Below, in pieces: positions 7,578-52,689 of a DNA stretch of 64,000 bases. Each line of letters opens with the position of its first letter. Position 1 is the stretch's first letter. Below the pieces are notes generated by a model, which saw only the letters and a list, made by a program, of their open reading frames with translations, was not told where the DNA came from and made no database searches. The position numbers and the translations under genes are program-made. The stretch comes from Candidatus Daviesbacteria bacterium (lineage in GTDB: Bacteria; Patescibacteriota; Microgenomatia; Daviesbacterales; UBA10151), in assembly GCA_028715175.1 (NCBI GenBank), contig JAQUSJ010000001.1, positions 340,550-404,549 of the forward strand, written 5' to 3'.

Positions 7578-8846
7578 ATGAGTGTCGGGGCAAGGGAAAG
7601 AGGAACTGTTAAAAGAGAAGTCTTTAGGTTAGAAGTTTGCCGGGCTTGTGGAAGCAATAAATTATTGTTGTTTCTTCAATTGGGGCCTACACCTGCGCCT
7701 AATGGATTCTTGAAAGCGCACCACCGCCATCAGGCAGAAAAGTTTTATCCGCTTGATGTTTGTTTTTGTCAGGATTGTGGATTAGTGCAGCTTGCTCATG
7801 TTGTCTCTCCCCAAATAATGTTTAAAAATTACGTATATATTCCTTCTACATCTGAAACTATGCGTAATCATTTTGCCGGTTTGGCATTAGATGCTATCAA
7901 AAAAACAGCGGCAAAAGAAGACGATTTAGTAATAGATATCGGCAGTAATGACGGTACGCTCTTAAAATCGTTTAAAGCACACAAAATGAAGATATTGGGA
8001 GTTGATCCGGCTGAGAATCTTGTAAAAAAAGCAAACAAAGAAGGGGTGAATACAATGTGCGCTTTATTTACTAATAAGCTGGCAAAAGAAATTAAAAAAA
8101 AGTATGGGAAAGCCAGGATTATTACCGGTACTAATGTTGTTGCACACGTGCATGATCTAAACGATTTCCTGGAAGGTATAAATGCCCTTCTTTCTGATGA
8201 AGGATTATTTATTTGTGAGTTTCCATATTTAATTGGTTTGCTTGAGGGGATTGAGTTCGACACTATTTACCAGGAACATCTTTCTTATTTTTCAATTTCA
8301 CCGTTTAATAGATTATTAAAAAGACATGGGTTAACTTTAATTGATGTCCAAAGGCTTCCGGTTCATGGAGGTTCCGTGAGAGTTTTTGTCAGTAAAAAAT
8401 CCCTACCACAAAGTATGCGCGTAAAGAATTTACTGAAACTTGAGGAAAAAAAGAAAATTTTAAAACAGGAGACATATTTAAAGTTTAGAAAAAAGGTAGA
8501 TAAAGTGAGGCATGAATTAGTCCAATTGCTTTGGACCCTGCGGATAAAGAACAAAAGTATTGTGGGTTACGGTGCATCCGCAAAAGGAAATATAATATTG
8601 AATTATTGTAGAATTGGACCGGAAACATTAGATTATATCGTTGATTCTATATCGTATAAACAAGGTAAATTTACTCCGGGAATGCATATTCCGATTTTTC
8701 CAGAGTCGAAACTTTTAGAAGATCAACCTGATTATACTTTGCTTCTAGCTTGGAATTTTGCTGATGAGATAATAAAAAAGCAATCAGAGTATCGGAAACG
8801 CGGGGGAAAATTTATTCTTGCGTTACCTAAATTGACAATTGTTTAG
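7578..8846 (+). CDS. NDP-hexose C-methyltransferase (TylCIII/NovU-type: zinc-ribbon + class I SAM MTase + C-methyltransferase C-terminal domain)
   Basis: Cys pairs 'CRACGS...CQDCGLVQLAHV' (putative Zn-binding MTase domain), SAM motif 'VIDIGSNDGTLL', and about 420 aa length typical of sugar C3/C5-methyltransferases. Confidence 0.75.
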   Translation: MSVGARERGTVKREVFRLEVCRACGSNKLLLFLQLGPTPAPNGFLKAHHRHQAEKFYPLDVCFCQDCGLVQLAHVVSPQIMFKNYVYIPSTSETMRNHFAGLALDAIKKTAAKEDDLVIDIGSNDGTLLKSFKAHKMKILGVDPAENLVKKANKEGVNTMCALFTNKLAKEIKKKYGKARIITGTNVVAHVHDLNDFLEGINALLSDEGLFICEFPYLIGLLEGIEFDTIYQEHLSYFSISPFNRLLKRHGLTLIDVQRLPVHGGSVRVFVSKKSLPQSMRVKNLLKLEEKKKILKQETYLKFRKKVDKVRHELVQLLWTLRIKNKSIVGYGASAKGNIILNYCRIGPETLDYIVDSISYKQGKFTPGMHIPIFPESKLLEDQPDYTLLLAWNFADEIIKKQSEYRKRGGKFILALPKLTIV

Positions 8847-15335: not shown

Positions 15336-17144
15336 TTAACGCTGGTTTTGTAAAAATTCCACTAATTTTTTTCTAGCATTATCGGTGATATTTATCAAAT
15401 TATCTTTGCCTTGAAGATGGAAGGCGTAAACGCTTGAAGGTGAGATTGGATTTAAAACACGGCCGCCAAAATGAGGTGCAAATGATTTTCCATCCAAAAC
15501 TGCAGATTCTACATCTTTCCAGACAATCATTGAAACAGGGTTCTTATTCATCTCCGGTATGTTATAAAGTATAGCCATATGAAACGGAAAACCAAAAGTA
15601 ACCGTATCATTTAATATAGATCCATTAGTCTCATCACCTTCAAAATAAAATATTAGTGGTTCCTTATTCTTACCAATTTCTGAAATATAAGGCATTTGGG
15701 ACCAAATTTTGTTACTGGTTTCAGCACTATGATTTTCTAAAAGCCTCTGAAGATGTATACGGGTATTTATTATATGTATTAGTATTAAGAAAAAAAATAA
15801 TGATAATACGATTTTTTGATACTTTTGATTTTTTACCAAAGAAACTAAAGTGGCAAGGAAAAGACTTATGCCTACTGCCGATCCAATTAGATACCGGTGA
15901 TAAGTAACCAAAAGAAAAAATGGGTCCCATAACCATGGTATTAAGAAAGCTACGACAGACCAACATAAAGATGAAAATATTGCCTGGGAGATTAATTGAT
16001 TTCGATAAAATTTATGAAGCAAATATATTCCTAATATTGATATATAACCCCCGATAAGAAGTGAAATTAAGAATTTAGGGCCTGGGAAAGTTGTTTGATT
16101 AGCAAAATAAACTACAGCAGAGATTAAACTCCATAATGCAGTAAAAACTAATGTTGTCCTGGAAGAATAAGTTTTTTTTGGAAATATTGAACGCATAATG
16201 AATAACGATATGATGGTGAATATGCTGTACACGAGCAATATCAAAAAAACTAACTGAGATTTTTTTAACGCTATCGGGAAATTATCTATAGCCGTATCAG
16301 GAATAAACATACTGCCGAATGAAATGACTGGATAAAATAGGAAGTCGAATCTGTAATTTTCTAATTGCTTGATCATCTTTGATAATGAATCTGTTGTTTG
16401 AGTAAGCAAAAAGATATTGGATTGAGGTTTTGCTTCATTTTTTTGTGTTGAGGAAAAAAAAGGATTTCCAGTAACATTAATAAATATTAAAATTAAGAAA
16501 ATAAAAGATAATCGTAAAGATACCTTTTTTAGAATTTTTTTGCTCCAATTTTGGATGATCCAAAAAAATTCAATTAAAAGAATAAATAGTAGAAGTCCAG
16601 TCATTCGAACAGGAACAGTTACAAAAGACAGATAAAAAAATAATCCTGCGTATAACAACTTTTTAACCTCTTTTTCTTCTCGTGATCTCAGGAAGTAATA
16701 TAGAAATAGATTAAAGAATGTTAGACCTATATATGAAGGAATATGAGGAAGATATTCTGTAGTTTCTAATCCAATAGTAGTGATGCAAAAAAACAACATT
16801 GCAAAAAAAGAAGCCAGTTTGCTTTTGGTGAGATAAAAAGTAAGGGGATAAAGCGAAAAAGCGACTATAATTCTTACGATCATTGAAGTCATATAATAAT
16901 AAGAAGCATGATAACCATAAATTGCCCGGAAAAAACCCATTAAAATAGCTTGTGATCCATATCTAGTTAATGCTTCATTTAAAAAATCCCTCATACTTGG
17001 AGTAGATCCTTGGGGAAATAGATAGTTATATATAGAGAATATCATCCAATCGTCGCCGTAAAAAGATAATTTAAGAGTTGGAAAGAATACTACTAGCCCG
17101 ACTAAGAAAATTATCAAGAACATTAACCATAGTTTCATTAGCAT
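15336..17144 (-). CDS. Polytopic membrane protein, putative GT-C-fold glycosyltransferase ('YGDDW' family, tandem paralog of 13588..15333)
   Basis: 602 aa, 'FYGDDWMIFSIY' N-terminal motif, C-terminal 'YAFHLQGKDNLINITDN'. Collinear with the neighbour. Confidence 0.5.
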   Translation of the reverse strand: MLMKLWLMFLIIFLVGLVVFFPTLKLSFYGDDWMIFSIYNYLFPQGSTPSMRDFLNEALTRYGSQAILMGFFRAIYGYHASYYYMTSMIVRIIVAFSLYPLTFYLTKSKLASFFAMLFFCITTIGLETTEYLPHIPSYIGLTFFNLFLYYFLRSREEKEVKKLLYAGLFFYLSFVTVPVRMTGLLLFILLIEFFWIIQNWSKKILKKVSLRLSFIFLILIFINVTGNPFFSSTQKNEAKPQSNIFLLTQTTDSLSKMIKQLENYRFDFLFYPVISFGSMFIPDTAIDNFPIALKKSQLVFLILLVYSIFTIISLFIMRSIFPKKTYSSRTTLVFTALWSLISAVVYFANQTTFPGPKFLISLLIGGYISILGIYLLHKFYRNQLISQAIFSSLCWSVVAFLIPWLWDPFFLLVTYHRYLIGSAVGISLFLATLVSLVKNQKYQKIVLSLFFFLILIHIINTRIHLQRLLENHSAETSNKIWSQMPYISEIGKNKEPLIFYFEGDETNGSILNDTVTFGFPFHMAILYNIPEMNKNPVSMIVWKDVESAVLDGKSFAPHFGGRVLNPISPSSVYAFHLQGKDNLINITDNARKKLVEFLQNQR

Positions 17145-21650: not shown

Positions 21651-21679
21651 TTTACAAAGAGTAAAATAGATAATATGAT
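21651..21679 (+). promoter_or_regulatory. Putative sigma70-like promoter (TTTACA-17-TATGAT) upstream of the aminotransferase gene
   Basis: Hexamers at 21651-56 and 21674-79 in the divergent intergenic region, about 28 nt upstream of the ATG at 21707. Confidence 0.25.
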
Positions 21680-21706
21680 TGTGAAAATTATTATAGAATA
21701 TTAATA

Positions 21707-22801
21707 ATGATTAATGTAACTAAAACAACTCTGCCTCCAATTAATAAATACATCAAATATTTAAAGAAAGTGTGGATGAATAATTGGATAACTAACAAGG
21801 GGGAATTTACTCTTCAGTTAGAAAAGGAATTAAAAAATTATCTTAAAGTAAAAAATTTATCAGTTGTCAGCAATGGGACCATTGCTATGCAACTTGCATT
21901 TAAAGCCTTAAAATTAAAAGGAGAAGTAATCACCACCCCCTTTACTTTTCCGGCAACAACGAATTCTTTAATATGGGAAGGGTTAAAACCGGTTTTTGCC
22001 GATATAGACCCCGAAACTTTTAATATTGACGCTAAAGAAATTGAGAAAAAAATAACTAAAGAAACATCCGCTATTTTAGCCGTGCACGTATTTGGTAATC
22101 CCTGTGATGTTGAGGCAATAGAAAAAATTGCCAAAAAATATAACTTAAAAATTATTTATGACAGCGCTCATGCTTTTGGAATAGAGTATAAAGATAAATC
22201 TGTCCTTTCCTGGGGCGATATAAACACTTTAAGTTTTCATGCAGCTAAAGTTTTTCATACTGCAGAGGGTGGAGCAGTAATAGCCAGGAAAAAGCGCGAC
22301 TACCAAATGCTCGATCTTCTTAAAAATCATGGGATTGAATATTACGATAAAGTAGTTATTGCCGGCATTAATGCTAAAATGAATGAACTGCAGGCAATAA
22401 TGGGACTGTGTGTTTTAGAAGATTTTGAAAAATCAATTATCAAAAGAAAGAAAATTTACCAAAGGTACAAAGAAGCTTTTTTAAAAAATCCCCTAATAAA
22501 AATACAAAAATTACATAATAATTTAACTAAATATACCTATCCTTATTTTCCAGTTTTTTTCCCCGATGAAAAAACAAGAGAACGCATTTTTAAAGTTTTA
22601 TTAAAAAATGGAATCAGGGCCAGAAAATATTTCTATCCTCCCTGTCACGAGTTTCCCTATATAAAATATTCTTCTTCTGATTTGCCTAATGCAACTAAAA
22701 TTTCTCACACAATTCTTTGTTTACCACTTTATGCAACCCTTACTACAAAAGATCATGAAAGAATTATTAACTTAGTTAACAAAGCTTTACTTAGCCTCTA
22801 G
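21707..22801 (+). CDS. DegT/DnrJ/EryC1/StrS-family PLP-dependent sugar aminotransferase
   Basis: 364 aa, 'FHAAKVFHTAEGGAV' (PLP lysine), N-terminal 'GEFTLQLEKELKNYL'. Confidence 0.8.
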   Translation: MINVTKTTLPPINKYIKYLKKVWMNNWITNKGEFTLQLEKELKNYLKVKNLSVVSNGTIAMQLAFKALKLKGEVITTPFTFPATTNSLIWEGLKPVFADIDPETFNIDAKEIEKKITKETSAILAVHVFGNPCDVEAIEKIAKKYNLKIIYDSAHAFGIEYKDKSVLSWGDINTLSFHAAKVFHTAEGGAVIARKKRDYQMLDLLKNHGIEYYDKVVIAGINAKMNELQAIMGLCVLEDFEKSIIKRKKIYQRYKEAFLKNPLIKIQKLHNNLTKYTYPYFPVFFPDEKTRERIFKVLLKNGIRARKYFYPPCHEFPYIKYSSSDLPNATKISHTILCLPLYATLTTKDHERIINLVNKALLSL

Positions 22802-22844
22802 TTATTAATTTTCAATTAAATTGAATAAAAAGCGAGACAATGAA

Positions 22845-22874
22845 TTGACAACTAGGGAGTCATGGTCATATTAT
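22845..22874 (+). promoter_or_regulatory. Putative sigma70-like promoter (TTGACA-18-TATTAT) just upstream of the carbamoyltransferase gene; would give a leaderless or near-leaderless mRNA
   Basis: TTGACA at 22845-50, TATTAT at 22869-74, ATG at 22882. Confidence 0.25.
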
Positions 22875-22881
22875 ACTGGGA

Positions 22882-24585
22882 ATGATTCTAAAGAATTCTT
22901 CTGTAATTGTTTTAGGTATTCATGACGGACACAACAGTGGAGCCGCTTTAATTCGCGACGGAGAAGTGCTTGCGGCAATCAACGAAGAAAGATTTAATAA
23001 TATTAAAAATTATTCAGGAGCTCCGGTTTTAGCCATAAAAAAGGTTTTTGAAATCTCAAAAATTAAGCCCAGTGAAGTTGACTTGATTACCATAGCTAGT
23101 TTTCTACGGCTTGATGATCCGGTGAAAGTAGAAGGCAATAAATTACATCTACTGGCAGAGTATCTTGCACCCTTGATGCATCAAAAATGGTTTATAAAAA
23201 ATAGCATTGCGATATTACATAAATTTAGAAGAATTAGTGAGGTAAAAAAAGTTTTAGATGATTTAGGCATTGGCAACAAGAAAATCAGTTTTATTGAACA
23301 TCATCTGGCTCATGCCGCCTGCGCTTTTTATCAAAGGTCATGGGACGGTAAAACACTGATATTAACTTTGGACGGAATGGGGGATGGTTTGTCTGCCACA
23401 GTTAATATTGGGTCAGGTTTTAATATTAAAAGAATAGCGGAAACTTCCTTTTACGATAGCCTTGGTAACAACTTGTATTCCGAAATTACTGCTTATTTAG
23501 GAATGAAACGGTGGGAACATGAATATAAAATCATGGGACTGGCGCCTTACGGAAAACCGGATAAAGTTCTTGATGTTTTGAGAAAGGGAATACGGATAAA
23601 TCCGCAACAGCCTTTAGAATTTGAGAATATCTCAGGATATTATTTGAAGAAGATGCAAACCTTTTATCAAAAAGCTTTGACCGGATATAGATTTGATAAT
23701 ATTGCAGCTGCTACTCAAAAACTCTTTGAAGATTTAGTGGTGCAGTGGGTCAAAAATGCTATTAAACAGACAAAACTGAATAAAATAGTTTGCGCCGGCG
23801 GTTCTTTTTTAAATGTTAAATTAAATAAATTAATTCGAGAGCTTAACGAAGTTGATGAAGTTTTCTTTTATCCGGCTGCTGAAGATGGTGGTTCTGCAGT
23901 TGGAGCGGCTTTAGAAGGTTACTATAGATTTTGCCAGCAGAATAAAATTTCTGCTAAAAAGATACAGATTTCGGATATATACTATGGACAATCGTTCTCC
24001 GATGAGCAGATTACCGAATTCATCAAATCTAAAAGATTAAAAAATGTTGCCAGGAAAGTTTCGCCAGCTAAAATAGCAAAATTGCTGACTCAAGGAAAAA
24101 TAATCGCCAGATTTTCCGGAAGAGATGAATGGGGACCAAGGGCTTTAGGTAACAGAAGTATTATGGCTGATCCCCGGGATATGCGAGTAATCAGAAAGAT
24201 TAATTTTGCCATCAAACAACGGGATTTTTGGATGCCTTTTGCTCCGGCGGTTTTAGAAGAGGATCAAGGTAGATACTTTAAAAAAAGCAGATTTGCTCCC
24301 TACATGATTGAGGCATTCGATACTACGGATGAAGCTCAAGAAATTATTGCCGGACTTCATCCTTATGATTTAACAGGTCGACCTCAAACAGTCAACAACT
24401 GGAATCCCTGCTGGCAGGCTATTATTAGAGAATTCAAAAAACTTACCAGTGTAGGAGGCATAGTGAATACGTCTTTTAATCTGCATGGTTATCCTTTGGT
24501 AGGTAATCTAGAGCAAGCTTTATGGACATTTAGAAACAGTAGGCTAGACGGTTTGTTATTAGGTGATTGGTTAATTGAAAAATAA
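22882..24585 (+). CDS. NodU/CmcH-family O-carbamoyltransferase
   Basis: 567 aa; 'IEHHLAHAACAFYQ' (HxxH...A carbamoyltransferase N-terminal motif) and a YrdC/Kae1-like fold region. Confidence 0.8.
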   Translation: MILKNSSVIVLGIHDGHNSGAALIRDGEVLAAINEERFNNIKNYSGAPVLAIKKVFEISKIKPSEVDLITIASFLRLDDPVKVEGNKLHLLAEYLAPLMHQKWFIKNSIAILHKFRRISEVKKVLDDLGIGNKKISFIEHHLAHAACAFYQRSWDGKTLILTLDGMGDGLSATVNIGSGFNIKRIAETSFYDSLGNNLYSEITAYLGMKRWEHEYKIMGLAPYGKPDKVLDVLRKGIRINPQQPLEFENISGYYLKKMQTFYQKALTGYRFDNIAAATQKLFEDLVVQWVKNAIKQTKLNKIVCAGGSFLNVKLNKLIRELNEVDEVFFYPAAEDGGSAVGAALEGYYRFCQQNKISAKKIQISDIYYGQSFSDEQITEFIKSKRLKNVARKVSPAKIAKLLTQGKIIARFSGRDEWGPRALGNRSIMADPRDMRVIRKINFAIKQRDFWMPFAPAVLEEDQGRYFKKSRFAPYMIEAFDTTDEAQEIIAGLHPYDLTGRPQTVNNWNPCWQAIIREFKKLTSVGGIVNTSFNLHGYPLVGNLEQALWTFRNSRLDGLLLGDWLIEK

Positions 24586-24598
24586 AGCCTATTAATTT

Positions 24599-25323
24599 AT
24601 GACTCAATATTTAACAAGAATACAAAAAGAAAACCGAAAAAGAATATTGGAGATTAGCTATAAGCATAAACTTTCTCATTTAGGTTCATGCCTTTCGGTT
24701 GTGGATCTAATTGATGCGGTTTATCGAATAAAGAAGACAGAAGAAAAATTTATATTAAGCGCAGGTCATGGAGGCGTTGCTTTGTATACAGTACTGGAAA
24801 AATACAGCAATGTTGATGCGGAAAAACTGTTTAAAAAGCATGGCGTGCATCCCAATAGAGATAAAAGAAATGAAATTCATTGCTCAACCGGTAGTTTAGG
24901 TCATGGTTTACCGAGATAGCTTTGGGTATGGCGCTGGCTGATAGGAATAAAAATGTTTATTGTTTGATATCAGACGGAGAATGTACGGAAGGGTCAGTTT
25001 GGGAATCATTCAGAATTGCTGACGATTTAAAAGTTAATAATTTAAAAATTATTTTAAACGCTAACGGCTGGGGAGCATATAGCAAAATTTCACTTAAGCC
25101 CTTAATAATAAGAATTAAATCATTTGATATGGCTCTTTGCGTTATTGATGGTCACAATATTAGTCAAGTCGTTGATGCCCTTAAGAAAAAAAGACAAGAT
25201 AAACCTTTAGTTATTTTTGCCAAAACTATTGTTGAGCAATTTCCCTTTTTGCAAGGTCAAGATGCTCATTATTATGTAATGAGTGATGAAGATTATTTAG
25301 CAGCAGTAAAGTTATTGAAGTAA
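24599..25323 (+). pseudogene. Transketolase-like TPP-binding N-terminal subunit, interrupted by a frameshift at about 24913-24916 (ORFs 24599..24919 and 24922..25323)
   Basis: 'SHLGSCLSVVDLIDAVY...SAGHGGVALYTVLE...HCSTGSLGHGLPR*' continues in the -1 frame as 'TEIALGMALADR...LISDGECTEGSVWES'. Removing 2 nt (AG) restores 'GHGLPIALGMALA'. Confidence 0.55.
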
Positions 25324-25324
25324 T

Positions 25325-25834
25325 ATGGCTATTCAAAAGAAATTACCATATCCAAGTATGAGAGGATATTTTGCCCATTATCTCTATGAGGAAATGGTAA
25401 AAAATAAAAAGATTTACATTATTACCGGCGATTTAGGATATAAGATGTGGGATCAAATAAAAAAAGATTTTCCGGACAGGTTTATTAATGCGGGAGCTTC
25501 GGAGCAGGCAATGATGGGGATTGCGGTAGGATTGGCGCTGGAAGGTAAAATTCCTTTTGTTTATTCTATACCAACTTTTCTGTTATATCGTGCCTTTGAA
25601 ACTATTAGAAATTATTTAAATATTGAAAAAATACCTGTAAGGTTGGTAGGGTCGGGAAGAGGTAGGGATTATACTCATGACGGAATAACACATTGGCCGG
25701 AAGAAGAAAAAGAAGTTATGGCAATTTTTCAAAACATTAAGTCTATTTGGCCGGAAAATCTAACAGAGATAGCAGTTTTAGTTAAAAAGATGGTAAAAGC
25801 CAATAGACCTTGGTACATTAACTTGAAAAGATAA
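25325..25834 (+). CDS. Transketolase-like pyrimidine-binding (C-terminal subunit) domain protein, short (169 aa; lacks the usual C-terminal domain)
   Basis: 'FINAGASEQAMMGIAVGLALEGKIPFVYSIPTFLLYRAFETIRN' is a Transket_pyr domain. Confidence 0.6.
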   Translation: MAIQKKLPYPSMRGYFAHYLYEEMVKNKKIYIITGDLGYKMWDQIKKDFPDRFINAGASEQAMMGIAVGLALEGKIPFVYSIPTFLLYRAFETIRNYLNIEKIPVRLVGSGRGRDYTHDGITHWPEEEKEVMAIFQNIKSIWPENLTEIAVLVKKMVKANRPWYINLKR

Positions 25835-25840
25835 GATTTA

Positions 25841-26794
25841 TCATTTTTTGTGATTATTTATAATTTCTTGAACTATTGCTTCGGGACGATTTTTAACTTC
25901 TTCAAAGATACGACGGATATATTCTGAAAGTAAGGTTAGAACTACAAGTTGTACGCTGCCAATAAATAAAATTGCTAGGAGTGTAGTAATAAATCCTTTG
26001 GGTGCATCAGGTACAACAAAATACATTGCGAAGTAAAAGAATATACCAAAGAGTGTTATAAAGGTGCTTAGTATAGCTGCGTAAAAAACCCATTCAAGGG
26101 GGGCATAAGAATAAGAAAATACTGCTTTTCTGGCCCACTGTAATCCTTTCCAAAAGCTAGTAGTTGAAACTCCTTCTCCCCAGTACCGCTCTGGTCTTAT
26201 GTATTCAATCCCAATTTGTTTAAATCCCACCCAGGCTCTAAGTCCTCTGATAAATCTGTCCTTTTCCGGGAGTCTGTTTATATGGTCAACAACAACTCTG
26301 TCCATGAGCGAGAAATCTCCTGCATCAAGCGGCACTTTAATATAGCTTAATTTGTTAAAAATAACGTAGAACATATGATAGATGAATTCCCAAATAGGTC
26401 CCATGCTTTGCTCTCGTTTTTTACGGCTACCATAAACTACTTGATATCCCTCCAACCATTTTTTAACAAATTGCTTTATTAGTTCAGGAGGATCTTGTAA
26501 GTCTCCATCCATTAAAACAACGATATCGCCGGTAGACTGTTTCATGCCGGTGGTAAAAGCATTTTGAGCGCCAAAATTTCTCGAATGAAGGATTACTGTT
26601 AAACGTTTATCTTCCTTGGCTAATTTTCTTAAAATTTGTTCCGAATTATCTGGGCTGTCATCATTAACGTAAATAATTTCCCAATTAGGTGTGATTTTTT
26701 TTAAAACTTTAACAGTTCTTCGGTACAACTCTTCAATATTACCTTCGTCGCGAAAAGCAATTGGTACAACAGAGATTTTTTTCCTTGTCAGCAT
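25841..26794 (-). CDS. GT2 polyprenol-phosphate sugar synthase-like glycosyltransferase (GtrB/ArnC/DPM1-like, two C-terminal TM helices)
   Basis: 'ISVVPIAFRDEGNIEEL...YVNDDSPDNS', 'MDGDLQDPPE' DxD, C-terminal TM pair. Confidence 0.75.
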   Translation of the reverse strand: MLTRKKISVVPIAFRDEGNIEELYRRTVKVLKKITPNWEIIYVNDDSPDNSEQILRKLAKEDKRLTVILHSRNFGAQNAFTTGMKQSTGDIVVLMDGDLQDPPELIKQFVKKWLEGYQVVYGSRKKREQSMGPIWEFIYHMFYVIFNKLSYIKVPLDAGDFSLMDRVVVDHINRLPEKDRFIRGLRAWVGFKQIGIEYIRPERYWGEGVSTTSFWKGLQWARKAVFSYSYAPLEWVFYAAILSTFITLFGIFFYFAMYFVVPDAPKGFITTLLAILFIGSVQLVVLTLLSEYIRRIFEEVKNRPEAIVQEIINNHKK

Positions 26795-27615
26795 AGTGGT
26801 TTTTTTAACTTTAGATGGAAAGATTCCATTTGGGATAGTATTTTAAAATAAATGTTAGAAGGTAGCAACTTAATAATTTTAAAAATAAAAAAGATACTTT
26901 TAGGATAAAAAAATTGTGCTTTATTACTTTTGGTTGAATTAATTATACAGTTTACTGCTTGATCTTCCGAAAGAATAAATGGGGCAATTTTCTTAAAAGG
27001 TCCCATCCCGGAGCCAATCGGTCCAAAATAAATAGTTTTAAATATGATGCCTTTGTCTTTATATTTTTGATAAAGACTCTCAAAACCGATAGATAGAGCT
27101 GCTTTGCTAGCAGCATAACCGATTCCCTCTATTCCGCTTCCTTTTAAGGCAGAAAAAGAAGATATTGCGATAAATTGGGTTCCTGGTTTTGCAAATGGAA
27201 TCAAGCTATTAATTCCTCTCATAATTCCTAGAAAATTTACGTCCACCATTTTTTTTAAAGTTTCTATCTCAATGCCATTTTTCAAATCATTTTGAGAAAT
27301 AGCTGCATTAAATATAATAATTTTTGGTATGAAATTTTTTTCTTTAAACTTATTGACAAGAGATTGCCAACAATTCTTTTCTGTCTGATCCATGGGTGTA
27401 TAAATGAAATTTGCGGAATTGTTTAATTCTTCCTTCAATTCTTTTAGTCGCTGTCCTCTTCTTGCTATTCCCCATACAATTTGTTTATCCGAAATGAGTT
27501 TTTTTGTTAAGGCTTTGCCTATTCCTGAAGAAACACCTGTTATTAAATACTTGCTCATGTTATTTTCTATGATTTTCTTTAGTAGAAGATTATTATACTC
27601 TAGATTTGAATTCAT
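26788..27615 (-). CDS. Short-chain dehydrogenase/reductase (SDR)
   Basis: 'YLITGVSSGIGKALTKKL' TGxxxGIG; 'YAASKAAL' YxxxK. Confidence 0.8.
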   Translation of the reverse strand: MNSNLEYNNLLLKKIIENNMSKYLITGVSSGIGKALTKKLISDKQIVWGIARRGQRLKELKEELNNSANFIYTPMDQTEKNCWQSLVNKFKEKNFIPKIIIFNAAISQNDLKNGIEIETLKKMVDVNFLGIMRGINSLIPFAKPGTQFIAISSFSALKGSGIEGIGYAASKAALSIGFESLYQKYKDKGIIFKTIYFGPIGSGMGPFKKIAPFILSEDQAVNCIINSTKSNKAQFFYPKSIFFIFKIIKLLPSNIYFKILSQMESFHLKLKKPLC

Positions 27616-27698
27616 TGAAATAAACTGCCATAATAAAAAATGGTCATAATGGTCATTTTATATAGTTTGTGGTTATGTAAATTTATGGAGAATAAAAG

Positions 27699-29231
27699 AT
27701 GGTAGAAGTACTTAGAAAAAAACAAAAATTAATATTTGTAATTTTTGTTTTCCTAATTTTTATGGTATCCTTTCTTACTTTTTGGAGAGCTTTTGGTTTT
27801 GACTTTTGGGGAGAGGATTGGGAGCAAATATGGTATGCAGTGTTTAGCCCATCACTTATTAATAATCAACAAATTTATCCTCATCCGATTGTGATCTATG
27901 AAGAATTGTTCTTGGCAAAGTTTTTGGGTTTTAATACATTATACTGGCAAACAATAGGATATTTATTAAAAGTTTTGGGTGCATTTGCAGTAAGTTTAAT
28001 GATGCTAGGGATTACAAGATCAAAAAGAGTGGCTATTTTTACGGGATTGATATATGCTTCTTCGGTTGGCGGTTTGGCGTCGGTAACCTGGGTAGCTGCT
28101 CAAGCCTCCGCGTTAGAAATTCCTTTTTTGTGTCTCGGGATATATTTTTGGATTACGAAAAAGAATTATGTACTAGCATTAGCACTGCTAATATTTAGCA
28201 TCTGGGCTGATCCTTCCAGGGGTATTTTTGGATGTCTTATTGTTATTTTATGGGATATCTTGACATATATTCAGAATACAAACAAAGTTATCTCCATTAA
28301 GCCTTGGAAAAGAGTATTAATTTTAATAATAGCAATCTTCTTCATAAAGTCTTTTCTTCTTGGTCAAAGATTTTTTGAGATATTACCCACACTAGATGTA
28401 AATATTAACTACATAGTTAATTATCCTATTGAAGTGTTGACTAATTTCCTTAATACGTTAGGCAATTTACTTGTTGGATGGTTTATCTCAATTCCACAAA
28501 ACGTTTTCGCCGTTTCGATACCAACTTTTATAGGGATAGCGGCGGGTTATCTTTTTTTATTTCAGACGATCTTTTTATTAGTTTATTTTCTAAAAAAGAA
28601 GAATGAATCTTTTAAGATATTATTTATTTTTTCAATATGGATAGTAGTTTTCTTTTTACCAAATTGGCTGTTAGCCGATAATTCGATGATTGGTTCCGAA
28701 AGACGGGTTTTAGGGCAGACACATCGCTATCTTACGCTTTCCGCCGTTGGTTTAGCTTGTTTTCTAGGATATGCGCTGTCAAGAGTAAAACGTAATCATC
28801 TCCAAGGGTTTTTACTATTATTTGTAGTAGGTAGCAATATCGTTATATCTAACCAAATTCTAAAAAAGGAAGCATATTACCGTTCTACGGAGGTGACAAA
28901 ACCTATGTGGGATAAAATCGAAAAAGATGTACCTGTGGGTGAAGAAAATAGTCTTTTCTTTATCCGGGGAGAGGATAAATTTAGAGTAAATGATATTTCT
29001 CAAATTAAAATTCCCTTTGCGATACGAAGAGGAATAATAAGCCGTGATAAGTGGCCCGGTTCTACTTCCGATCCTGGAGTAGTGAAAAGATACATGTGCG
29101 GTAATACTGATGATAGACGAATAGTGCCGCTTTCTCGTCTTCACGTCTGGTATATAAAAGGGAACACATTGGATAATATATCGGAAAAAGTACGAAAAGA
29201 ATTTAGTGAGATGGATTGTAGTTCTCAATAA
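27699..29231 (+). CDS. Polytopic membrane protein, putative GT-C-fold glycosyltransferase ('WGEDW', related to the YGDDW family)
   Basis: 510 aa, many TM helices, N-terminal 'FWGEDWEQIWYAV', C-terminal 'LHVWYIKGNTLDNISEKV' resembling the family's C-terminal motif. Confidence 0.5.
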   Translation: MVEVLRKKQKLIFVIFVFLIFMVSFLTFWRAFGFDFWGEDWEQIWYAVFSPSLINNQQIYPHPIVIYEELFLAKFLGFNTLYWQTIGYLLKVLGAFAVSLMMLGITRSKRVAIFTGLIYASSVGGLASVTWVAAQASALEIPFLCLGIYFWITKKNYVLALALLIFSIWADPSRGIFGCLIVILWDILTYIQNTNKVISIKPWKRVLILIIAIFFIKSFLLGQRFFEILPTLDVNINYIVNYPIEVLTNFLNTLGNLLVGWFISIPQNVFAVSIPTFIGIAAGYLFLFQTIFLLVYFLKKKNESFKILFIFSIWIVVFFLPNWLLADNSMIGSERRVLGQTHRYLTLSAVGLACFLGYALSRVKRNHLQGFLLLFVVGSNIVISNQILKKEAYYRSTEVTKPMWDKIEKDVPVGEENSLFFIRGEDKFRVNDISQIKIPFAIRRGIISRDKWPGSTSDPGVVKRYMCGNTDDRRIVPLSRLHVWYIKGNTLDNISEKVRKEFSEMDCSSQ

Positions 29232-29257
29232 ATTTACATGAGTTTAGTATATCGTTT

Positions 29258-30010
29258 ATGGAAAGATTTAGTTATGAATGGGTTAAATTTAATAAGATAG
29301 TTCCTGATTACGAGATTCAGTTTTTAAAATGGATTCATATATTTAAACCCGAAGATTTCAAAGATAAGAGAATATTAGATGCAGGATGTGGAATGGGCAG
29401 GAATAGTTACTGGCCACTTCTATATGGAGCAAAAGAGGTTGTAGCTTTTGATCATGATCATAATATAGTGAACGTAGCAAGAAAAAATTTGTCAAATTTT
29501 AAAAATGTTAAAATTTATTATCAGTCGATTTATAGAATAATATATAAAGATTATTTTGATATAGCATTTTCGATTGGAGTGATACATCATTTACAATATC
29601 CGCAAAAAGCCATTACCAATTTGATTAATTCTGTAAAAAAGAACGGTACGGTACTTATTTGGGTTTATGATAAAGAGGGGAGTAAACGGATAGTAGAAAT
29701 AGTTAATTTCTTACGGTATTTTACTTCTAGACTACCGCTACAGATTGTAGATGTTTTGTCTTATTTGATTACAGTTTTTTTGTGGGTATATTTAAAGATA
29801 ATAATGCAAACACATCCTTATTTTCAACAAATATCAAATTTTAATTTTTGGCACTTAAGATCAATAGTTTTTGATCAATTAATACCTAAAATTGCAAATT
29901 ATTGGTCTAGGGAAGAAGTACTTGCTTTATTTAAGGATAAAAGATTAAAAAATATTAAAATCTTTAAAGTTAACAATAATTCCTGGACCGTAACTGCACA
30001 AAAAAAGTAA
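29258..30010 (+). CDS. Class I SAM-dependent methyltransferase
   Basis: 'ILDAGCGMGRNS' motif I. Confidence 0.7.
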   Translation: MERFSYEWVKFNKIVPDYEIQFLKWIHIFKPEDFKDKRILDAGCGMGRNSYWPLLYGAKEVVAFDHDHNIVNVARKNLSNFKNVKIYYQSIYRIIYKDYFDIAFSIGVIHHLQYPQKAITNLINSVKKNGTVLIWVYDKEGSKRIVEIVNFLRYFTSRLPLQIVDVLSYLITVFLWVYLKIIMQTHPYFQQISNFNFWHLRSIVFDQLIPKIANYWSREEVLALFKDKRLKNIKIFKVNNNSWTVTAQKK

Positions 30011-30060
30011 ATTTATTTAAAACAGACATTATTACGGATAGTTTAATTTTATTCATTGGA

Positions 30061-31158
30061 TTAATGATTTAAAAGATAATCCACAATTACAGTAGAAGGT
30101 CTTTCGTTTAATTGTATCGGTCTTTTTCTATATTTTTTATAATTCTTAAGAAAATTTTTTATAATATGCTCATTATCTTGGCTTATAATTACATTTTTCC
30201 CTAAGCCTTCTATTCTTTCCGTTCTATTCCTTAAGGCGAGTACCGGCAGCCCCATATAAGAAGCTTCTTCTTGGTTAGTACAGCCATCAGTTGCTATGAA
30301 TTCCGCTTGGCTCATTAATTTCATGAAGTTGGTATAGGGTAGTTTCTCAATTGTGATTAATTTGTCTTGTCTATTTCGCGTGAGATTTTTTGGTAAAAGA
30401 TCCTTGTTGAGGAAGTGGATAGAAAATAAACAATTCAGATCAGCAGGGGCATTATTTAAGATTGTGTTGATAATTTTTCCAGTCCACTCTTTTTGAAAAT
30501 AGAGATGTTCCTGACGGCGGATATACAAAATATAATATTTTTTGTATTTTTGTTTAAAATCTAAATTTTTATTTGTCTTCATTGCCCATGTAAAAGCTTC
30601 TATCAATGTATTTTGTTTAGTATCAATCTTTGTTCCTTTAAAGGTTTTTATATTATTTATTGCCCATTGATTTGGGCAAAAAAGAATATCAGCAAGACGC
30701 ATATTTATTACTCTGCAAATTTCTTCCGGGAAAGGCTCTAAAAAGCTAAAAGAACGTAACCCAGACTCTATATGTGCTAACTTAAAACCATGAAATTTTG
30801 CAATTAAAGATCCTATAGTTGAAGAAACTGTGTCTCCATGCACAATAAAGTATGAGTTATTTTTATTTAAATCTTGAAACTCTTTTTTTAAAGAAATAAT
30901 CCCTTCAAACAGAGATTGAAAAGCCCATATAACAAATGAAAACATTGAAGATTTCCTGGGTTTTTCCTTGAGGGCTATATCTGTTTTTATTAAGCCGATA
31001 TAACCTTTTAAATCATCAAAATTGATAGGATTTTGACCGGAAGTAATGACTTTAAATTTTATTTTTTGTTTTTTAAATTCTTTTATCACAGGGGCAAGTT
31101 TGATAAACTCTGCTGTTGTCCCCATAAAAAAATATACCTTCTTTTCTACTGTGCCCAT
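30061..31158 (-). CDS. UDP-N-acetylglucosamine 2-epimerase-like (WecB/NeuC family)
   Basis: 'FFMGTTAEFIKLAPV', 'HGDTVSSTIG', 'HIESGLRSF', 'DGCTNQEEASYMGLPVLALRNRTER' parallel WecB conserved blocks. Confidence 0.7.
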   Translation of the reverse strand: MGTVEKKVYFFMGTTAEFIKLAPVIKEFKKQKIKFKVITSGQNPINFDDLKGYIGLIKTDIALKEKPRKSSMFSFVIWAFQSLFEGIISLKKEFQDLNKNNSYFIVHGDTVSSTIGSLIAKFHGFKLAHIESGLRSFSFLEPFPEEICRVINMRLADILFCPNQWAINNIKTFKGTKIDTKQNTLIEAFTWAMKTNKNLDFKQKYKKYYILYIRRQEHLYFQKEWTGKIINTILNNAPADLNCLFSIHFLNKDLLPKNLTRNRQDKLITIEKLPYTNFMKLMSQAEFIATDGCTNQEEASYMGLPVLALRNRTERIEGLGKNVIISQDNEHIIKNFLKNYKKYRKRPIQLNERPSTVIVDYLLNH

Positions 31159-31195
31159 TGTTAAGATAGAAGCACTATAATATACTTTTTACGCA

Positions 31196-33901: not shown

Positions 33902-33938
33902 TTCATTGTATACTACAATCTAATTTAACCAAATTAAA

Positions 33939-36307: not shown

Positions 36308-37267
36308 ATGCCAAAAATATATCTTTCAATTATTGTACCTTTTTATAACGAAGTATCAAATTTGCCAGTACTGAATAAGGAATTATTGAAGGTCGTTGCG
36401 GCTATTAAGAGTAAATGTGAAATTATTTATGTGGATGATGCCTCAACTGATGGTTCTGTATATAGTTTGGTAAAGGATATTAAGAATAATGGAAACAAAA
36501 AAATCGATATTAAGCTTATATCGTTAAGAAAGAACTTTGGGCAAACAGCCGCAATTTCAGCAGGAATTGATTACGCAAATGGGGAAATAGTGGCAATTTT
36601 GGATGCAGACTTGCAAAATGATCCGACAGATCTGATAGTCATGATAGGGAAGCTGGAAATAGGATTTGACGCGGTTGTCGGATGGAGAAGAAATCGTCAA
36701 GATGGAAGCTCGCGAGTTCTTTTATCAAAGGTTGCCAACTGGCTAATCAGAATAATTTTTAAAACTCCTTTTCATGATTTGGGTTGTTCGCTGAAAGTAA
36801 TAAAAAGAAATTTTTTGAAAGATACCAGGTTTTATGGAGAATCGCATCGTTTAATATCTATCCTTTTATTCTGGAAAGGTGCAGCGGTTGAGGAAGTAAT
36901 AGTCAATCATAGGAAAAGACTTACCGGGCAATCAAAATACGGTTATTCACGGATAATAAAACTGATTCTTGATTTAGTTACATCCAAATTTTTAAGTGCT
37001 TATGGTACAAAACCAGCTTATGTTTTCGGTACATTTGGGATACTTAGTATTTTTGTAAGTATTCCCTTAATGGGGATGGTTTTGTATGATAAGTTTTACC
37101 ATGGTGTTTATGTACACAAAAATCCTCTATTTTTGATAGCCAGCTTTTTGATTTTACTGGGAATTCAGTTTTTGCTAATGGGTCTTCTGGCGGAGCTTAT
37201 TGTCAGGACTTATTTTGAAACCCAAAAGAAAACAACATATGAAATTAAAAATACAAAGGTTTACTAA
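36308..37267 (+). CDS. GT2 polyprenol-phosphate sugar synthase-like glycosyltransferase (GtrB/DPM1-like with C-terminal TM helices)
   Basis: 'LSIIVPFYNEVSNLP...YVDDASTDGS', 'LDADLQNDP', C-terminal TM pair. Confidence 0.75.
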   Translation: MPKIYLSIIVPFYNEVSNLPVLNKELLKVVAAIKSKCEIIYVDDASTDGSVYSLVKDIKNNGNKKIDIKLISLRKNFGQTAAISAGIDYANGEIVAILDADLQNDPTDLIVMIGKLEIGFDAVVGWRRNRQDGSSRVLLSKVANWLIRIIFKTPFHDLGCSLKVIKRNFLKDTRFYGESHRLISILLFWKGAAVEEVIVNHRKRLTGQSKYGYSRIIKLILDLVTSKFLSAYGTKPAYVFGTFGILSIFVSIPLMGMVLYDKFYHGVYVHKNPLFLIASFLILLGIQFLLMGLLAELIVRTYFETQKKTTYEIKNTKVY

Positions 37268-49576: not shown

Positions 49577-49588
49577 CTGATATTGAGA

Positions 49589-52615: not shown

Positions 52616-52689
52616 ACGAAGACAGGTTACCATTTGTGTTAAGGTGATGTGAAAAACCGCTTTTTGCTATACTTAATATAGCTGTAGTT

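What the first reader, a model, noticed from the sequence alone, without database searches (positions are those of the whole stretch)
21707..25834. Sugar-tailoring block: aminotransferase + O-carbamoyltransferase + split transketolase-like TPP enzyme (with the TylCIII-type C-methyltransferase at 7578) suggests an aminated, carbamoylated, C-branched sugar
Two-subunit transketolase-like (or pyruvate-dehydrogenase-E1-like) TPP enzymes inside glycan clusters are known to attach two-carbon branches to keto-sugar nucleotides. They are not part of central metabolism. Here the module sits next to a DegT aminotransferase and a NodU/CmcH carbamoyltransferase, and the locus also has a TylCIII-type C-methyltransferase. 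Together these predict a highly unusual monosaccharide. The C-subunit (169 aa) has only the pyrimidine-binding domain, and the N-subunit is short, so it is a minimal TPP enzyme rather than a housekeeping transketolase.
Basis: inference. Interest (0 to 1): 0.6.

Follow-up and report, generated by a model that had tools for sequence, protein, structure and literature searches.

The report
Minimal split transketolase in glycan locus
The four genes are real, but the notable part is a two-piece "mini" transketolase-like enzyme, conserved next to a lipid-carrier glycosyltransferase in many uncultivated ultra-small bacteria and probably adding a two-carbon unit to a cell-surface sugar; in this genome its first gene is broken by a 2-base insertion.

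Summary
Window 21707-25834 (Candidatus Daviesbacteria, Patescibacteria) encodes a DegT aminotransferase, a NodU/CmcH-type carbamoyltransferase and a split transketolase-like TPP enzyme. The TPP enzyme has a ~240-aa PP subunit and a 169-aa Pyr subunit, and no domain III.

The PP-subunit gene carries a 2-bp insertion at 24914-24915, inside the conserved GSLGxGLPIA cofactor loop. A second assembly (Logan) of run SRR22315506 shows the same insertion. The ortholog in L004 is intact.

The enzyme is not a decayed housekeeping transketolase. About 1,900 protein clusters have this short form. In 84 related genomic loci the pair lies next to:
- a PgfS/ArnC-like polyprenyl-phosphate GT2 (70 loci);
- a dehydratase-type SDR (65 loci) or, alternatively, an adh_short SDR (9 loci);
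- a methyltransferase (57 loci).

The aminotransferase (14 loci) and carbamoyltransferase (6 loci) are only occasional neighbours. The C-methyltransferase at 7578 is not linked.

Transketolase-type catalytic histidines are invariant, including the His100 equivalent that is Phe in DXS.

Best reading: a TPP-dependent ketol (hydroxyacetyl) transfer onto a keto-sugar that is then loaded on a lipid carrier. This is inferred, not shown. No family member has been characterised. I rate it a new variant of a known kind.

The parts
21707..22801 (+). DegT/DnrJ/EryC1-family PLP sugar aminotransferase (364 aa), first gene of the + strand block
   Evidence: Pfam PF01041, 6.4e-98. The best NCBIfam models are DesI and PseC, both below cut-off. 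A close ortholog occurs only in L004. DegT homologues are present in 14 of 84 related loci.
22882..24585 (+). NodU/CmcH-type carbamoyltransferase (567 aa)
   Evidence: Carbam_trans_N 7e-44 and Carbam_trans_C 4e-53. NodU model 3.5e-32, below cut-off. Homologues occur in 6 of 84 related loci. Close orthologs are in L004, L032 and L034.
24599..25323 (+). Mini-transketolase PP (diphosphate-binding) subunit gene, interrupted: ORFs 24599-24919 and 24922-25323 lie in different frames
   Evidence: The joined 240-aa product hits Transketolase_N and DXP_synthase_N, the NCBIfam transketolase model at 121 bits versus dxs at 46 bits, and 6yak at 1e-22. Homologues are intact at 237-254 aa. An AF2 model of the ortholog has pLDDT 93.3 and best matches 6yak_A with TMq 0.85.
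24914..24915 (+). 2-bp insertion (AG; equivalently GA at 24915-24916) that creates the TAG stop at 24917-24919, inside the invariant GSLGxGLPIA loop
   Evidence: Alignment to the intact ortholog L004:7274-7999. The same sequence is in Logan assembly L010. The motif is invariant in 25 and in 80 homologues. dN/dS is 0.07 and 0.135 for the two halves, so the lesion is recent.
25325..25834 (+). Mini-transketolase Pyr (pyrimidine-binding) subunit, 169 aa, with no domain III
   Evidence: Transket_pyr only. 6yaj at 1e-21, ending at the end of the Pyr domain. AF2 pLDDT 94.8, best Foldseek match 6yaj with TMq 0.85 and TMt 0.48. 1919 homologues of 158-183 aa. E60 and H123 are invariant.
25841..26794 (-). 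GT2 polyprenyl-phosphate glycosyltransferase (PgfS/ArnC-like, 317 aa), the most conserved partner of the mini-transketolase
   Evidence: Glycos_transf_2 2e-32. Full-length matches to the PgfS (2e-67) and ArnC (2e-38) models, both below cut-off. Within 5 kb of the pair in 70 of 84 loci and immediately downstream in 46. A hydrophobic C-terminal third is visible in the translation.
26788..27615 (-). Classical (adh_short) SDR, 275 aa, overlapping the GT2 start by 7 nt
   Evidence: adh_short 1.5e-24. Occurs in 9 of 84 loci. It is almost mutually exclusive with the 317-aa dehydratase-type SDR found in 65 of 84 loci.
27699..29231 (+). 510-aa polytopic membrane protein, probably a GT-C-type transferase that uses the lipid-linked sugar (inferred)
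   Evidence: No Pfam hit. Clusters with window paralogues 13588-15333 and 15336-17144. Related loci carry PMT_2 or GT-C_AftD proteins in this neighbourhood.
7578..8846 (+).
   Evidence: Methyltransf_13 plus Methyltransf_14. It lies 13 kb away. Homologues appear in only 5 of 84 mini-transketolase loci.

Best explanation
The block is a lineage-specific version of a widespread, uncharacterised sugar-tailoring cassette of Patescibacteria and some other uncultivated phyla.

The core of the cassette is a heteromeric 'mini-transketolase': a ~240-aa PP subunit plus a ~167-aa Pyr subunit, with no domain III.

Most likely mechanism (inferred):
1. TPP on the enzyme takes a two-carbon ketol unit (dihydroxyethyl-TPP) from a ketose or hydroxypyruvate donor.
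2. It adds that unit to the carbonyl of a keto-sugar made by the partner SDR. The result is a hydroxyacetyl-branched (tertiary alcohol) sugar.
3. The adjacent PgfS/ArnC-like GT2 loads the modified sugar onto polyprenyl phosphate.
4. GT-C-type membrane enzymes transfer it to an acceptor outside the membrane.

In this window and its close relative L004, the usual dehydratase-type SDR and methyltransferase are replaced. In their place are a co-oriented DegT aminotransferase and a carbamoyltransferase upstream, and an adh_short SDR beside the GT2. These plausibly act on the new branch: amination or reduction of its ketone, and carbamoylation of its CH2OH group. That last step is pure inference.

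In the sequenced population the PP-subunit gene carries a 2-bp insertion in the cofactor loop. The enzyme is therefore probably inactive here, recently.

Shown: gene content, family membership, architecture, conservation, synteny and the frameshift. Inferred: substrates, product and order of steps.
For: Family and fold:
- Pfam, NCBIfam and PDB matches.
- AF2 models with pLDDT 93-95, best matching both chains of the split transketolase 6yak/6yaj.

Transketolase-type active site is invariant:
- PP subunit: H27, H57, H84 (HPxR), GSLGxGLPIA, SDGE..EG, NANG and AHY.
- Pyr subunit: E60, H123 and D119-G120.
- The His100 equivalent (H84) is Phe in DXS and controls the choice between hydroxypyruvate and pyruvate (PMC7661550).

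Not housekeeping:
- In 84 loci from GTDB species genomes, the PP gene lies directly upstream of the Pyr gene in 75, with a 4-nt overlap in 52.
- The GT2 lies within 5 kb in 70, either SDR in 74 and the methyltransferase in 57.
- The order SDR > MT > TK-N > TK-C > GT2 recurs in Microgenomates, Paceibacteria, Omnitrophota, Planctomycetota, Elusimicrobia and archaeal MAGs.

Partner SDR: it keeps GSSSEYG (Glu in 55 of 57) and YxxxK. This is the dehydratase/decarboxylase pattern rather than the GalE pattern. Its best NCBIfam model is dTDP-glucose 4,6-dehydratase at 1.5e-47.

Precedent:
- TPP enzymes branch 4-keto sugar nucleotides, and such branches are further modified by reductases and transaminases (PMC9306805).
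- Split transketolases are proposed to transfer hydroxyacetyl in miharamycin and amipurimycin biosynthesis (PMC12247030).

Operon-like packing in the window: gaps of 80, 13 and 1 nt between the four genes.

Frameshift. dN/dS of about 0.11 matches the neighbours.
Against: - No member of the family has been studied. Every representative checked is metagenomic.
- Even the Streptomyces split transketolases are unproven in vitro (PMC12247030).
- The window has no ortholog of the 317-aa SDR and no recognisable 4,6-dehydratase or nucleotidyltransferase in 64 kb, so the keto-sugar source here is unknown.
- Two equivalents of the transketolase phosphate-binding arginines are kept (R13 and the C-terminal R169). 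A sugar-phosphate substrate therefore remains possible.
- Pfam scores Transketolase_N and DXP_synthase_N equally, and the Pyr fold matches DXS nearly as well as transketolase.
- The classical SDR and the extended SDR are alternatives, which fits 'a redox partner' but not specifically a dehydratase.
- The gene is broken in this genome.
Confidence: 0.45

Rival explanations
1. Same role, different donor. The pair acts like DXS, YerE or E1: it decarboxylates pyruvate and adds an acetyl/hydroxyethyl (not hydroxyacetyl) branch to the keto-sugar.
For: DXP_synthase_N scores the same as Transketolase_N in Pfam. The Pyr-subunit model matches DXS structures almost as well as transketolase, with TMq 0.85. 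All characterised sugar-branching TPP enzymes use 2-keto acids (PMC12247030, PMC9306805).
Against: The His100 equivalent (H84 in HPxR) is invariant, whereas DXS has Phe there; H100F/L mutations shift a transketolase towards pyruvate (PMC7661550). The NCBIfam transketolase model scores 121 bits versus 46 for dxs. The PP-subunit model ranks transketolases first, with DXS only from rank 20 at TMq 0.70-0.73.
Confidence: 0.15
2. A true transketolase-type interconversion at the sugar-phosphate level. It would supply an unusual ketose or aldose phosphate precursor for the glycan and form no branch.
For: Equivalents of the phosphate-binding R358 and R520, and of D469 and H473, are kept (R13, R169, D119, H123). 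Sequence and fold are closest to a biochemically active split transketolase.
Against: The conserved cassette has no kinase, isomerase, mutase or nucleotidyltransferase to use a sugar phosphate. Its fixed partners are an NDP-sugar-type SDR and a polyprenyl-phosphate GT2. The H461 equivalent is Gly and S385 is not kept. Scores fall far below the transketolase equivalog cut-offs.
Confidence: 0.15
3. The enzyme and the SDR act after the GT2, on the polyprenyl-phosphate-linked sugar. This would be analogous to DprE1/DprE2 remodelling decaprenyl-phospho-ribose.
For: The GT2 is the tightest partner. In the window the adh_short SDR overlaps the GT2 gene by 7 nt. DprE2 is also a classical SDR (my own knowledge).
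Against: In most loci the partner SDR is of the extended, nucleotide-sugar type. The transketolase subunits show no membrane segments in their translations. No transketolase-family enzyme acting on a lipid-linked sugar is known to me.
Confidence: 0.1
4. In this genome the module is simply a dead gene, and the block makes only an aminated and/or carbamoylated sugar.
For: A 2-bp insertion creates a stop inside the invariant cofactor loop, and a second assembly of the run shows it too. The site has no slippery motif and no relative needs recoding (inspection).
Against: There is no further damage: dN/dS is 0.07-0.135 in both halves, there are no extra stops, and the Pyr subunit is intact. The lesion could still be a minority-allele or consensus artefact of one read set. 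This rival concerns only this copy, not the family, so it can hold together with the main explanation.
Confidence: 0.6

Closest known systems
Split-gene transketolase of Carboxydothermus hydrogenoformans (ChTK; PDB 6yak/6yaj; PMC7661550)
   Same: Two polypeptides, PP domain on one and Pyr domain on the other. It is the best sequence and fold match for both subunits. The TPP/metal motif, the catalytic Glu and the transketolase-type histidines, including His100, are conserved.
   Different: The ChTK beta chain also carries domain III (residues 164-312). The mini family ends at the last Pyr-domain arginine, and no domain III is encoded anywhere in 85 loci. The PP subunit is about 40 residues shorter. 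The H461 and S385 equivalents are not kept. The genomic context is glycan tailoring, not central metabolism.
Split-gene transketolases proposed for the C-branch of miharamycin and amipurimycin, plus 13 further Streptomyces clusters (PMC12247030, citing Krug et al. 2024)
   Same: A split transketolase placed in a sugar-tailoring cluster after an oxidoreductase that makes the keto group. [quoted passage not shown]
   Different: Those enzymes are from Streptomyces secondary metabolism and remain unproven in vitro. Here the setting is a cell-envelope glycan island of Patescibacteria and other uncultivated phyla, coupled to a polyprenyl-phosphate GT2.
YerE (yersiniose A) and E1-like alpha/beta enzymes (alpha-KADH2: avilamycin, aldgamycin and kibdelomycin clusters)
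   Same: TPP-dependent addition of a C2 unit to the 4-keto group of a nucleotide sugar. The branch is later reduced or transaminated (PMC12247030, PMC9306805).
   Different: They belong to different TPP superfamily branches. YerE is a single-chain decarboxylase-family enzyme. alpha-KADH2 has E1_dh plus Transket_pyr plus Transketolase_C. The window protein hits E1_dh only at 0.005 and gives no TPP_enzyme_N match. Their donor is pyruvate or another 2-keto acid.
Lipid-carrier sugar modification pathways: Arn (ArnA/B/C/T), Pgf (PgfS/E/M1/M2), Gtr
   Same: The logic is shared: an SDR acts on a nucleotide sugar, there is an optional DegT aminotransferase, a GT2 loads the sugar on undecaprenyl phosphate, and a GT-C enzyme uses it outside the membrane. 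The GT2 aligns end to end with the PgfS and ArnC models.
   Different: None of these systems contains a TPP enzyme. The GT2 and SDR scores are below the equivalog cut-offs. The pathway descriptions come from my own knowledge.

Membership tests
Transketolase-like TPP enzymes (TK/DXS/E1 superfamily) | PP domain with the TPP/metal motif GDG-X(25-30)-N | tested here: met
   SDGE..EG and NANG are invariant or nearly so in 80 and in 25 homologues. Transketolase_N hit. The ortholog model matches 6yak_A with TMq 0.85.
Transketolase-like TPP enzymes (TK/DXS/E1 superfamily) | Pyr domain with the cofactor-activating glutamate | tested here: met
   E60 is invariant in 37 sequences. Transket_pyr 5e-21. AF2 pLDDT 94.8, matching 6yaj with TMq 0.85.
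Transketolase proper (EC 2.2.1.1) | Active-site histidines H26, H66, H100, H261 and H473 (E. coli numbering); H100 separates TK from DXS | tested here: met
   H27, H57, H84, H223/224 (AHY) and H123 of the Pyr subunit are invariant. The role of H100 is taken from PMC7661550. Residue mapping uses the alignments plus motif knowledge.
Transketolase proper (EC 2.2.1.1) | Third (Transketolase_C) domain | tested here: not met
   The protein ends at the end of the Pyr domain. TMt is 0.48 against 6yaj. A domain III HMM finds nothing credible in 85 loci plus the window.
Transketolase proper (EC 2.2.1.1) | Sugar-phosphate binding set R358, S385, H461, R520 | tested here: inconclusive
   R13 and the C-terminal R169 are kept. 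The H461 position is Gly and the S385 position is not Ser. A new conserved GSGR..DY motif is present.
Transketolase proper (EC 2.2.1.1) | Score above the curated equivalog cut-off | tested here: not met
   Best transketolase model scores 121 bits (cut-off 488) for the PP subunit and 63 bits for the Pyr subunit.
Transketolase proper (EC 2.2.1.1) | Intact reading frame in this window | tested here: not met
   2-bp insertion at 24914-24915 with a stop at 24917-24919. The Pyr subunit is intact.
TPP-dependent sugar C-branching enzymes | Encoded beside an enzyme that makes a keto-sugar, within a sugar-tailoring cluster | tested here: met
   For the family: a dehydratase-type SDR lies within 5 kb in 65 of 84 loci, and either SDR in 74 of 84. 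For the window alone this is weaker: only an adh_short SDR is present and there is no SDR317 ortholog.
TPP-dependent sugar C-branching enzymes | Homology to a characterised branching enzyme (YerE-type decarboxylase family or E1-like alpha/beta) | tested here: not met
   No TPP_enzyme_N/M architecture. E1_dh is only 0.005 and the PDH E1 models are weak.
TPP-dependent sugar C-branching enzymes | Formation of a C-branched (tertiary alcohol) sugar product | not testable with these tools
   Needs enzymology or glycan structure analysis.
DegT/DnrJ/EryC1 sugar aminotransferases | Full-length match to the family profile | tested here: met
   PF01041 6.4e-98 over residues 15-357. Specific equivalogs (DesI, PseC, ArnB) are all below cut-off, so regiochemistry is unknown.
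NodU/CmcH carbamoyltransferases | Both the Kae1-like N-terminal domain and the YrdC-like C-terminal domain | tested here: met
   Carbam_trans_N 7e-44 and Carbam_trans_C 4e-53. The acceptor was not determined.
Polyprenyl-phosphate glycosyltransferases (PgfS/ArnC/GtrB type GT2) | GT2 catalytic domain followed by C-terminal membrane segments, aligning end to end with the family models | tested here: met
   PgfS model 2e-67 over 6-310 of 308 and ArnC model 2e-38 over 5-315 of 316, both below equivalog cut-offs. A hydrophobic C-terminal region is visible in the translation.

The most novel reading that the evidence does not exclude
A widespread transketolase lineage that has not been described has shed domain III and become a dedicated glycan-tailoring enzyme. 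Together with a dehydratase-type SDR, a methyltransferase and a polyprenyl-phosphate GT2, it would form a mobile five-gene cassette. That cassette would put a hydroxyacetyl-branched (or two-carbon-extended) sugar on the cell surface of Patescibacteria, Omnitrophota and other uncultivated lineages. This would be the first transketolase-type sugar-branching system outside Streptomyces secondary metabolism and the first tied to lipid-carrier glycosylation. The window shows a variant in which the branch is further aminated and carbamoylated.
Probability: 0.35. Interest if true: 0.7.

Novelty: new variant of a known kind. Interest (0 to 1): 0.55.

Why it matters
- It defines a large, conserved enzyme family (about 1,900 clusters at 90% identity). 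The family has an unusual two-domain transketolase architecture and a fixed genomic partnership that points to new sugar chemistry in the envelopes of ultra-small, uncultivated bacteria. Their surface glycans are essentially unknown.
- It offers experimentally tractable candidates for the still unproven idea that transketolases can use ketones as acceptors. That is also of biocatalytic interest (PMC12247030).
- These proteins are labelled K00615/COG3958 'transketolase' in public annotation. They can therefore be miscounted as pentose-phosphate-pathway enzymes in metabolic reconstructions of reduced genomes.
- For this particular genome the practical message is more modest: the gene is frameshifted.

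Tried and rejected
- A 37-sequence alignment was too diverse for the search for related loci. A 10-sequence alignment worked.
- Literature searches found nothing relevant on transketolase in O-antigen or polysaccharide clusters, or on Patescibacteria glycosylation. The amipurimycin cluster paper PMC6774755 is not held.
- The promoter/terminator scan gave no signal above shuffles: 25 sites against 24.9 expected.
- Programmed frameshifting was considered and rejected. Restoring the frame needs a -1 or +2 shift. The site (GGT TTA CCG AGA TAG) is not a slippery heptamer. A slip would alter the invariant GLPIA loop. All relatives are in frame.
- 'Degraded remnant of a housekeeping transketolase' is rejected for the family.
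- A separately encoded domain III was searched for and not found.
- Orthologs of the usual SDR317 and MT300 partners elsewhere in the window were searched for and not found. The best hits, 39080-40015 and 40409-41086, score below every true member. 39080-40015 looks like a UDP-GlcA 4-epimerase type instead.
- Cultured or characterised members: none among 80 GTDB loci and 10 distant representatives.
- PDB search for the adh_short SDR returned only an uncharacterised yeast oxidoreductase.

Full report
**1. What is there**

The window comes from a Candidatus Daviesbacteria (Patescibacteria) contig of 743 kb. The 169-aa product of 25325-25834 is identical to an NCBI protein of that MAG.

Nearly every ORF of 100 aa or more in the 64 kb with a Pfam match hits a glycan-related family (many have none):
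- GT2 and GT4 glycosyltransferases;
- many SAM methyltransferases;
- two Wzx-like flippases;
- SDR epimerases and reductases, and a WecB-like epimerase;
- an AsnB-like amidotransferase;
- large membrane proteins without Pfam matches.

Inside this island, the four + strand genes of the finding are packed with gaps of 80, 13 and 1 nt:
- a DegT aminotransferase (Pfam 6e-98);
- a NodU/CmcH-type carbamoyltransferase (both domains);
- a transketolase-like PP subunit;
- a transketolase-like Pyr subunit.

**2. The frameshift**

The PP-subunit gene is read as two ORFs in different frames, 24599-24919 and 24922-25323. Alignment with the intact 241-aa ortholog of a related metagenomic contig (L004) shows one lesion. 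It is a 2-bp insertion: ccgAGatagct in the window against ccgatagct in L004.

The insertion sits inside GSLGxGLPIA, one of the most conserved stretches of the family. It creates a TAG stop.

The Logan assembly of run SRR22315506 is identical to the window over 4720 nt and carries the same insertion. The insertion is therefore probably in the reads, not an artefact of one assembler. I could not confirm that this run is the MAG's own read set, and it may well be, so this is a second assembly but probably not a second sample.

Apart from this lesion the gene looks healthy. There are no other stops. dN/dS against L004 is 0.07 for the 5' half and 0.135 for the 3' half, within the 0.06-0.25 range of the neighbouring genes. 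The damage is therefore very recent, or a local polymorphism.

I found no basis for programmed recoding. The site is not slippery, and none of the 120 best homologues needs recoding.

**3. The enzyme is a distinct 'mini' transketolase, not a remnant**

Pyr subunit:
- 1919 homologues at E <= 1e-5; all of the 120 best are 158-183 aa.
- In a library clustered at 50% identity, 27 representatives score below 1e-30 and are almost all 156-173 aa. Beyond that the hits merge into ordinary split-transketolase beta chains of about 305 aa.
- In a rough NJ tree, 43 of 52 short sequences form one clade.

PP subunit: the homologues are uniformly 237-254 aa.

Structure models:
- Both subunits model with high confidence (pLDDT 94.8 and 93.3).
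- Both best match the two chains of the Carboxydothermus split transketolase.
- The Pyr subunit covers only the first half of that beta chain (TMq 0.85, TMt 0.48).
- An HMM of domain III finds nothing credible in 85 loci or in the whole window.

Catalytic equipment:
- The TPP/metal motif, the activating Glu (E60) and the transketolase-type histidines are invariant.
- This includes the equivalent of E. coli His100. According to PMC7661550, that residue is consistently Phe in DXS, and changing it shifts a transketolase towards pyruvate.
- Of the four sugar-phosphate ligands, two arginine equivalents are kept. One of them is the very last residue of the protein. The His461 equivalent is Gly and Ser385 is not kept.

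**4. The real functional neighbourhood**

I fetched 80 loci from GTDB species genomes plus 4 metagenomic loci and clustered all their ORFs. Across the 84 loci:

| Neighbour of the Pyr gene | Loci (of 84) |
|---|---|
| PP gene directly upstream | 75 (4-nt overlap in 52) |
| ~313-aa GT2, within 5 kb | 70 (immediately downstream in 46) |
| ~317-aa extended SDR, within 5 kb | 65 |
| adh_short SDR, within 5 kb | 9 |
| either SDR, within 5 kb | 74 |
| ~300-aa methyltransferase, within 5 kb | 57 |
| DegT homologue | 14 |
| carbamoyltransferase | 6 |
| TylCIII-type C-methyltransferase | 5 |

- The adh_short SDR is almost mutually exclusive with the 317-aa SDR.
- The commonest gene order is SDR > MT > TK-N > TK-C > GT2.
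- That order recurs in Microgenomates, Paceibacteria, Omnitrophota, Planctomycetota, Elusimicrobia and some archaeal MAGs. This pattern argues for a functional cassette rather than inherited synteny.
- The GT2 aligns end to end with the PgfS and ArnC models, that is, with polyprenyl-phosphate sugar synthases.
- The 317-aa SDR keeps YxxxK and a GSSSEYG motif with Glu in 55 of 57 sequences. That is the Ser/Thr-x-Glu pattern of 4,6-dehydratases and decarboxylases, not the GalE pattern (my own knowledge of the SDR families). Its best curated model is dTDP-glucose 4,6-dehydratase.
- GT-C-type membrane proteins (PMT_2, AftD-like) are regular neighbours.

The window, like L004/L005, is a minority variant:
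- It has no ortholog of the 317-aa SDR or of the 300-aa methyltransferase.
- It has the adh_short SDR, overlapping the GT2 gene.
- The aminotransferase and carbamoyltransferase lie directly upstream.

**5. Mechanism**

Shown:
- a TPP enzyme of the transketolase branch with a complete transketolase-type active site;
- a fixed association with a nucleotide-sugar-type SDR and a lipid-carrier GT2.

Inferred:
1. The SDR creates a keto-sugar.
2. The mini-transketolase adds a two-carbon ketol unit to that carbonyl.
3. The GT2 loads the product on polyprenyl phosphate.
4. GT-C enzymes deliver it outside the membrane.

Precedents:
- YerE and the E1-like enzymes branch 4-keto sugar nucleotides with C2 units. 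Such branches are then reduced or transaminated (PMC9306805, PMC12247030).
- Split transketolases are proposed, but not demonstrated, to transfer hydroxyacetyl in miharamycin and amipurimycin biosynthesis. The 13 further candidates reported are all from Streptomyces (PMC12247030).

In the window variant, the aminotransferase, the adh_short SDR and the carbamoyltransferase are plausible tailoring enzymes of the new -CO-CH2OH branch. This is speculation.

Rivals:
- a pyruvate donor (DXS-like), disfavoured by the His100 equivalent and by the sequence and fold ranking;
- an ordinary sugar-phosphate transketolase reaction, disfavoured by the cassette content;
- action on the lipid-linked sugar;
- for this genome only, a dead gene.

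**6.

The domain calls, the 'minimal TPP enzyme' reading and the 'not central metabolism' reading are right. Intact orthologs in sugar clusters are abundant.

The proposed unit (aminotransferase plus carbamoyltransferase plus transketolase plus distant C-methyltransferase, together making one exotic sugar) is not what comparative genomics supports. The literature claim is stronger than the evidence for transketolase-type enzymes. The frameshift also makes the prediction doubtful for this organism.

**7. Novelty and score**

I found no description of this family. Its members are annotated 'hypothetical protein' or 'transketolase'.

It is best classed as a new variant of a known kind. It is a TPP-dependent, transketolase-superfamily sugar-tailoring enzyme with three new aspects:
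- a new architecture (no domain III);
- a new phylogenetic range;
- a new coupling to lipid-carrier glycosylation.

Interest is moderate to fairly high for the family and lower for this broken copy.

Noticed in passing
window 21672-25834 versus 25871-33342 (compared with L004): Nucleotide identity to the syntenic contig L004 is about 75% across the aminotransferase-carbamoyltransferase-transketolase block. It jumps to 85-92% just past the TK-C/GT2 boundary. dS is also much higher in the block (1.1-2.3 against 0.36-0.7). The block seems to have a separate history, such as recombination or cassette exchange.
   Followed up: partly
window 6018-7004 (+): Strong homologue of GDP-mannose 3',5'-epimerase (PDB 2c59, E = 4e-115), the enzyme that makes GDP-L-galactose and GDP-L-gulose. 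It lies next to the C-methyltransferase (7578-8846) and an RmlD-like reductase (8827-9726, - strand).
   Followed up: partly
window 37267-40015: An AsnB-like glutamine amidotransferase (37267-39114) sits beside an SDR (39080-40015, - strand). The SDR's best solved relative is a UDP-glucuronic acid 4-epimerase-type protein (6zl6, 7e-53). This hints at an amidated uronic acid in the glycan.
   Followed up: partly
window 13588-15333 (-), 15336-17144 (-), 27699-29231 (+): Three paralogous polytopic membrane proteins of 510-600 aa with no Pfam match cluster together. They are probably GT-C-type transferases. Other large proteins without Pfam matches are at 2855-4885, 10513-12411, 31196-36299 and 49583-54333.
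   Followed up: no
whole window 1-64000: Pfam recognises no NDP-hexose 4,6-dehydratase, no sugar nucleotidyltransferase and no initiating phosphoglycosyltransferase among ORFs of 100 aa or more. Yet the DegT, TylCIII-type and RmlD-like enzymes normally need a 4-keto-6-deoxy sugar. Those genes must lie elsewhere or be too divergent to detect.
   Followed up: partly
window 42406-43998 (+): One 530-aa ORF fuses a GT2 domain (residues 9-265) with a SAM methyltransferase domain (residues 332-451).
   Followed up: no
family-wide (P0271, P0124 and others): Public pipelines label the mini-transketolase subunits K00615/COG3958 'transketolase'. This could inflate pentose-phosphate-pathway calls in metabolic reconstructions of CPR and other reduced genomes.
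   Followed up: no
L079, L080 (Maricaulis sp. MAG), L081 (Thaumarchaeota MAG), L082 (Nanoarchaeota MAG): A different cassette form (GT2b > TK-N > TK-C > SDR > DegT > SDR) appears in bins labelled alphaproteobacterial and archaeal. This means either horizontal spread or mis-binning. Many 'uncultured Gammaproteobacteria' titles among the loci also look like mislabelled Patescibacteria.
   Followed up: no
window 45702-49235 and 7007-7510: DUF5667 domains, typical of Patescibacteria surface proteins, occur in a 1177-aa protein and a 167-aa protein inside the glycan island. These are possible glycosylation targets.
   Followed up: no
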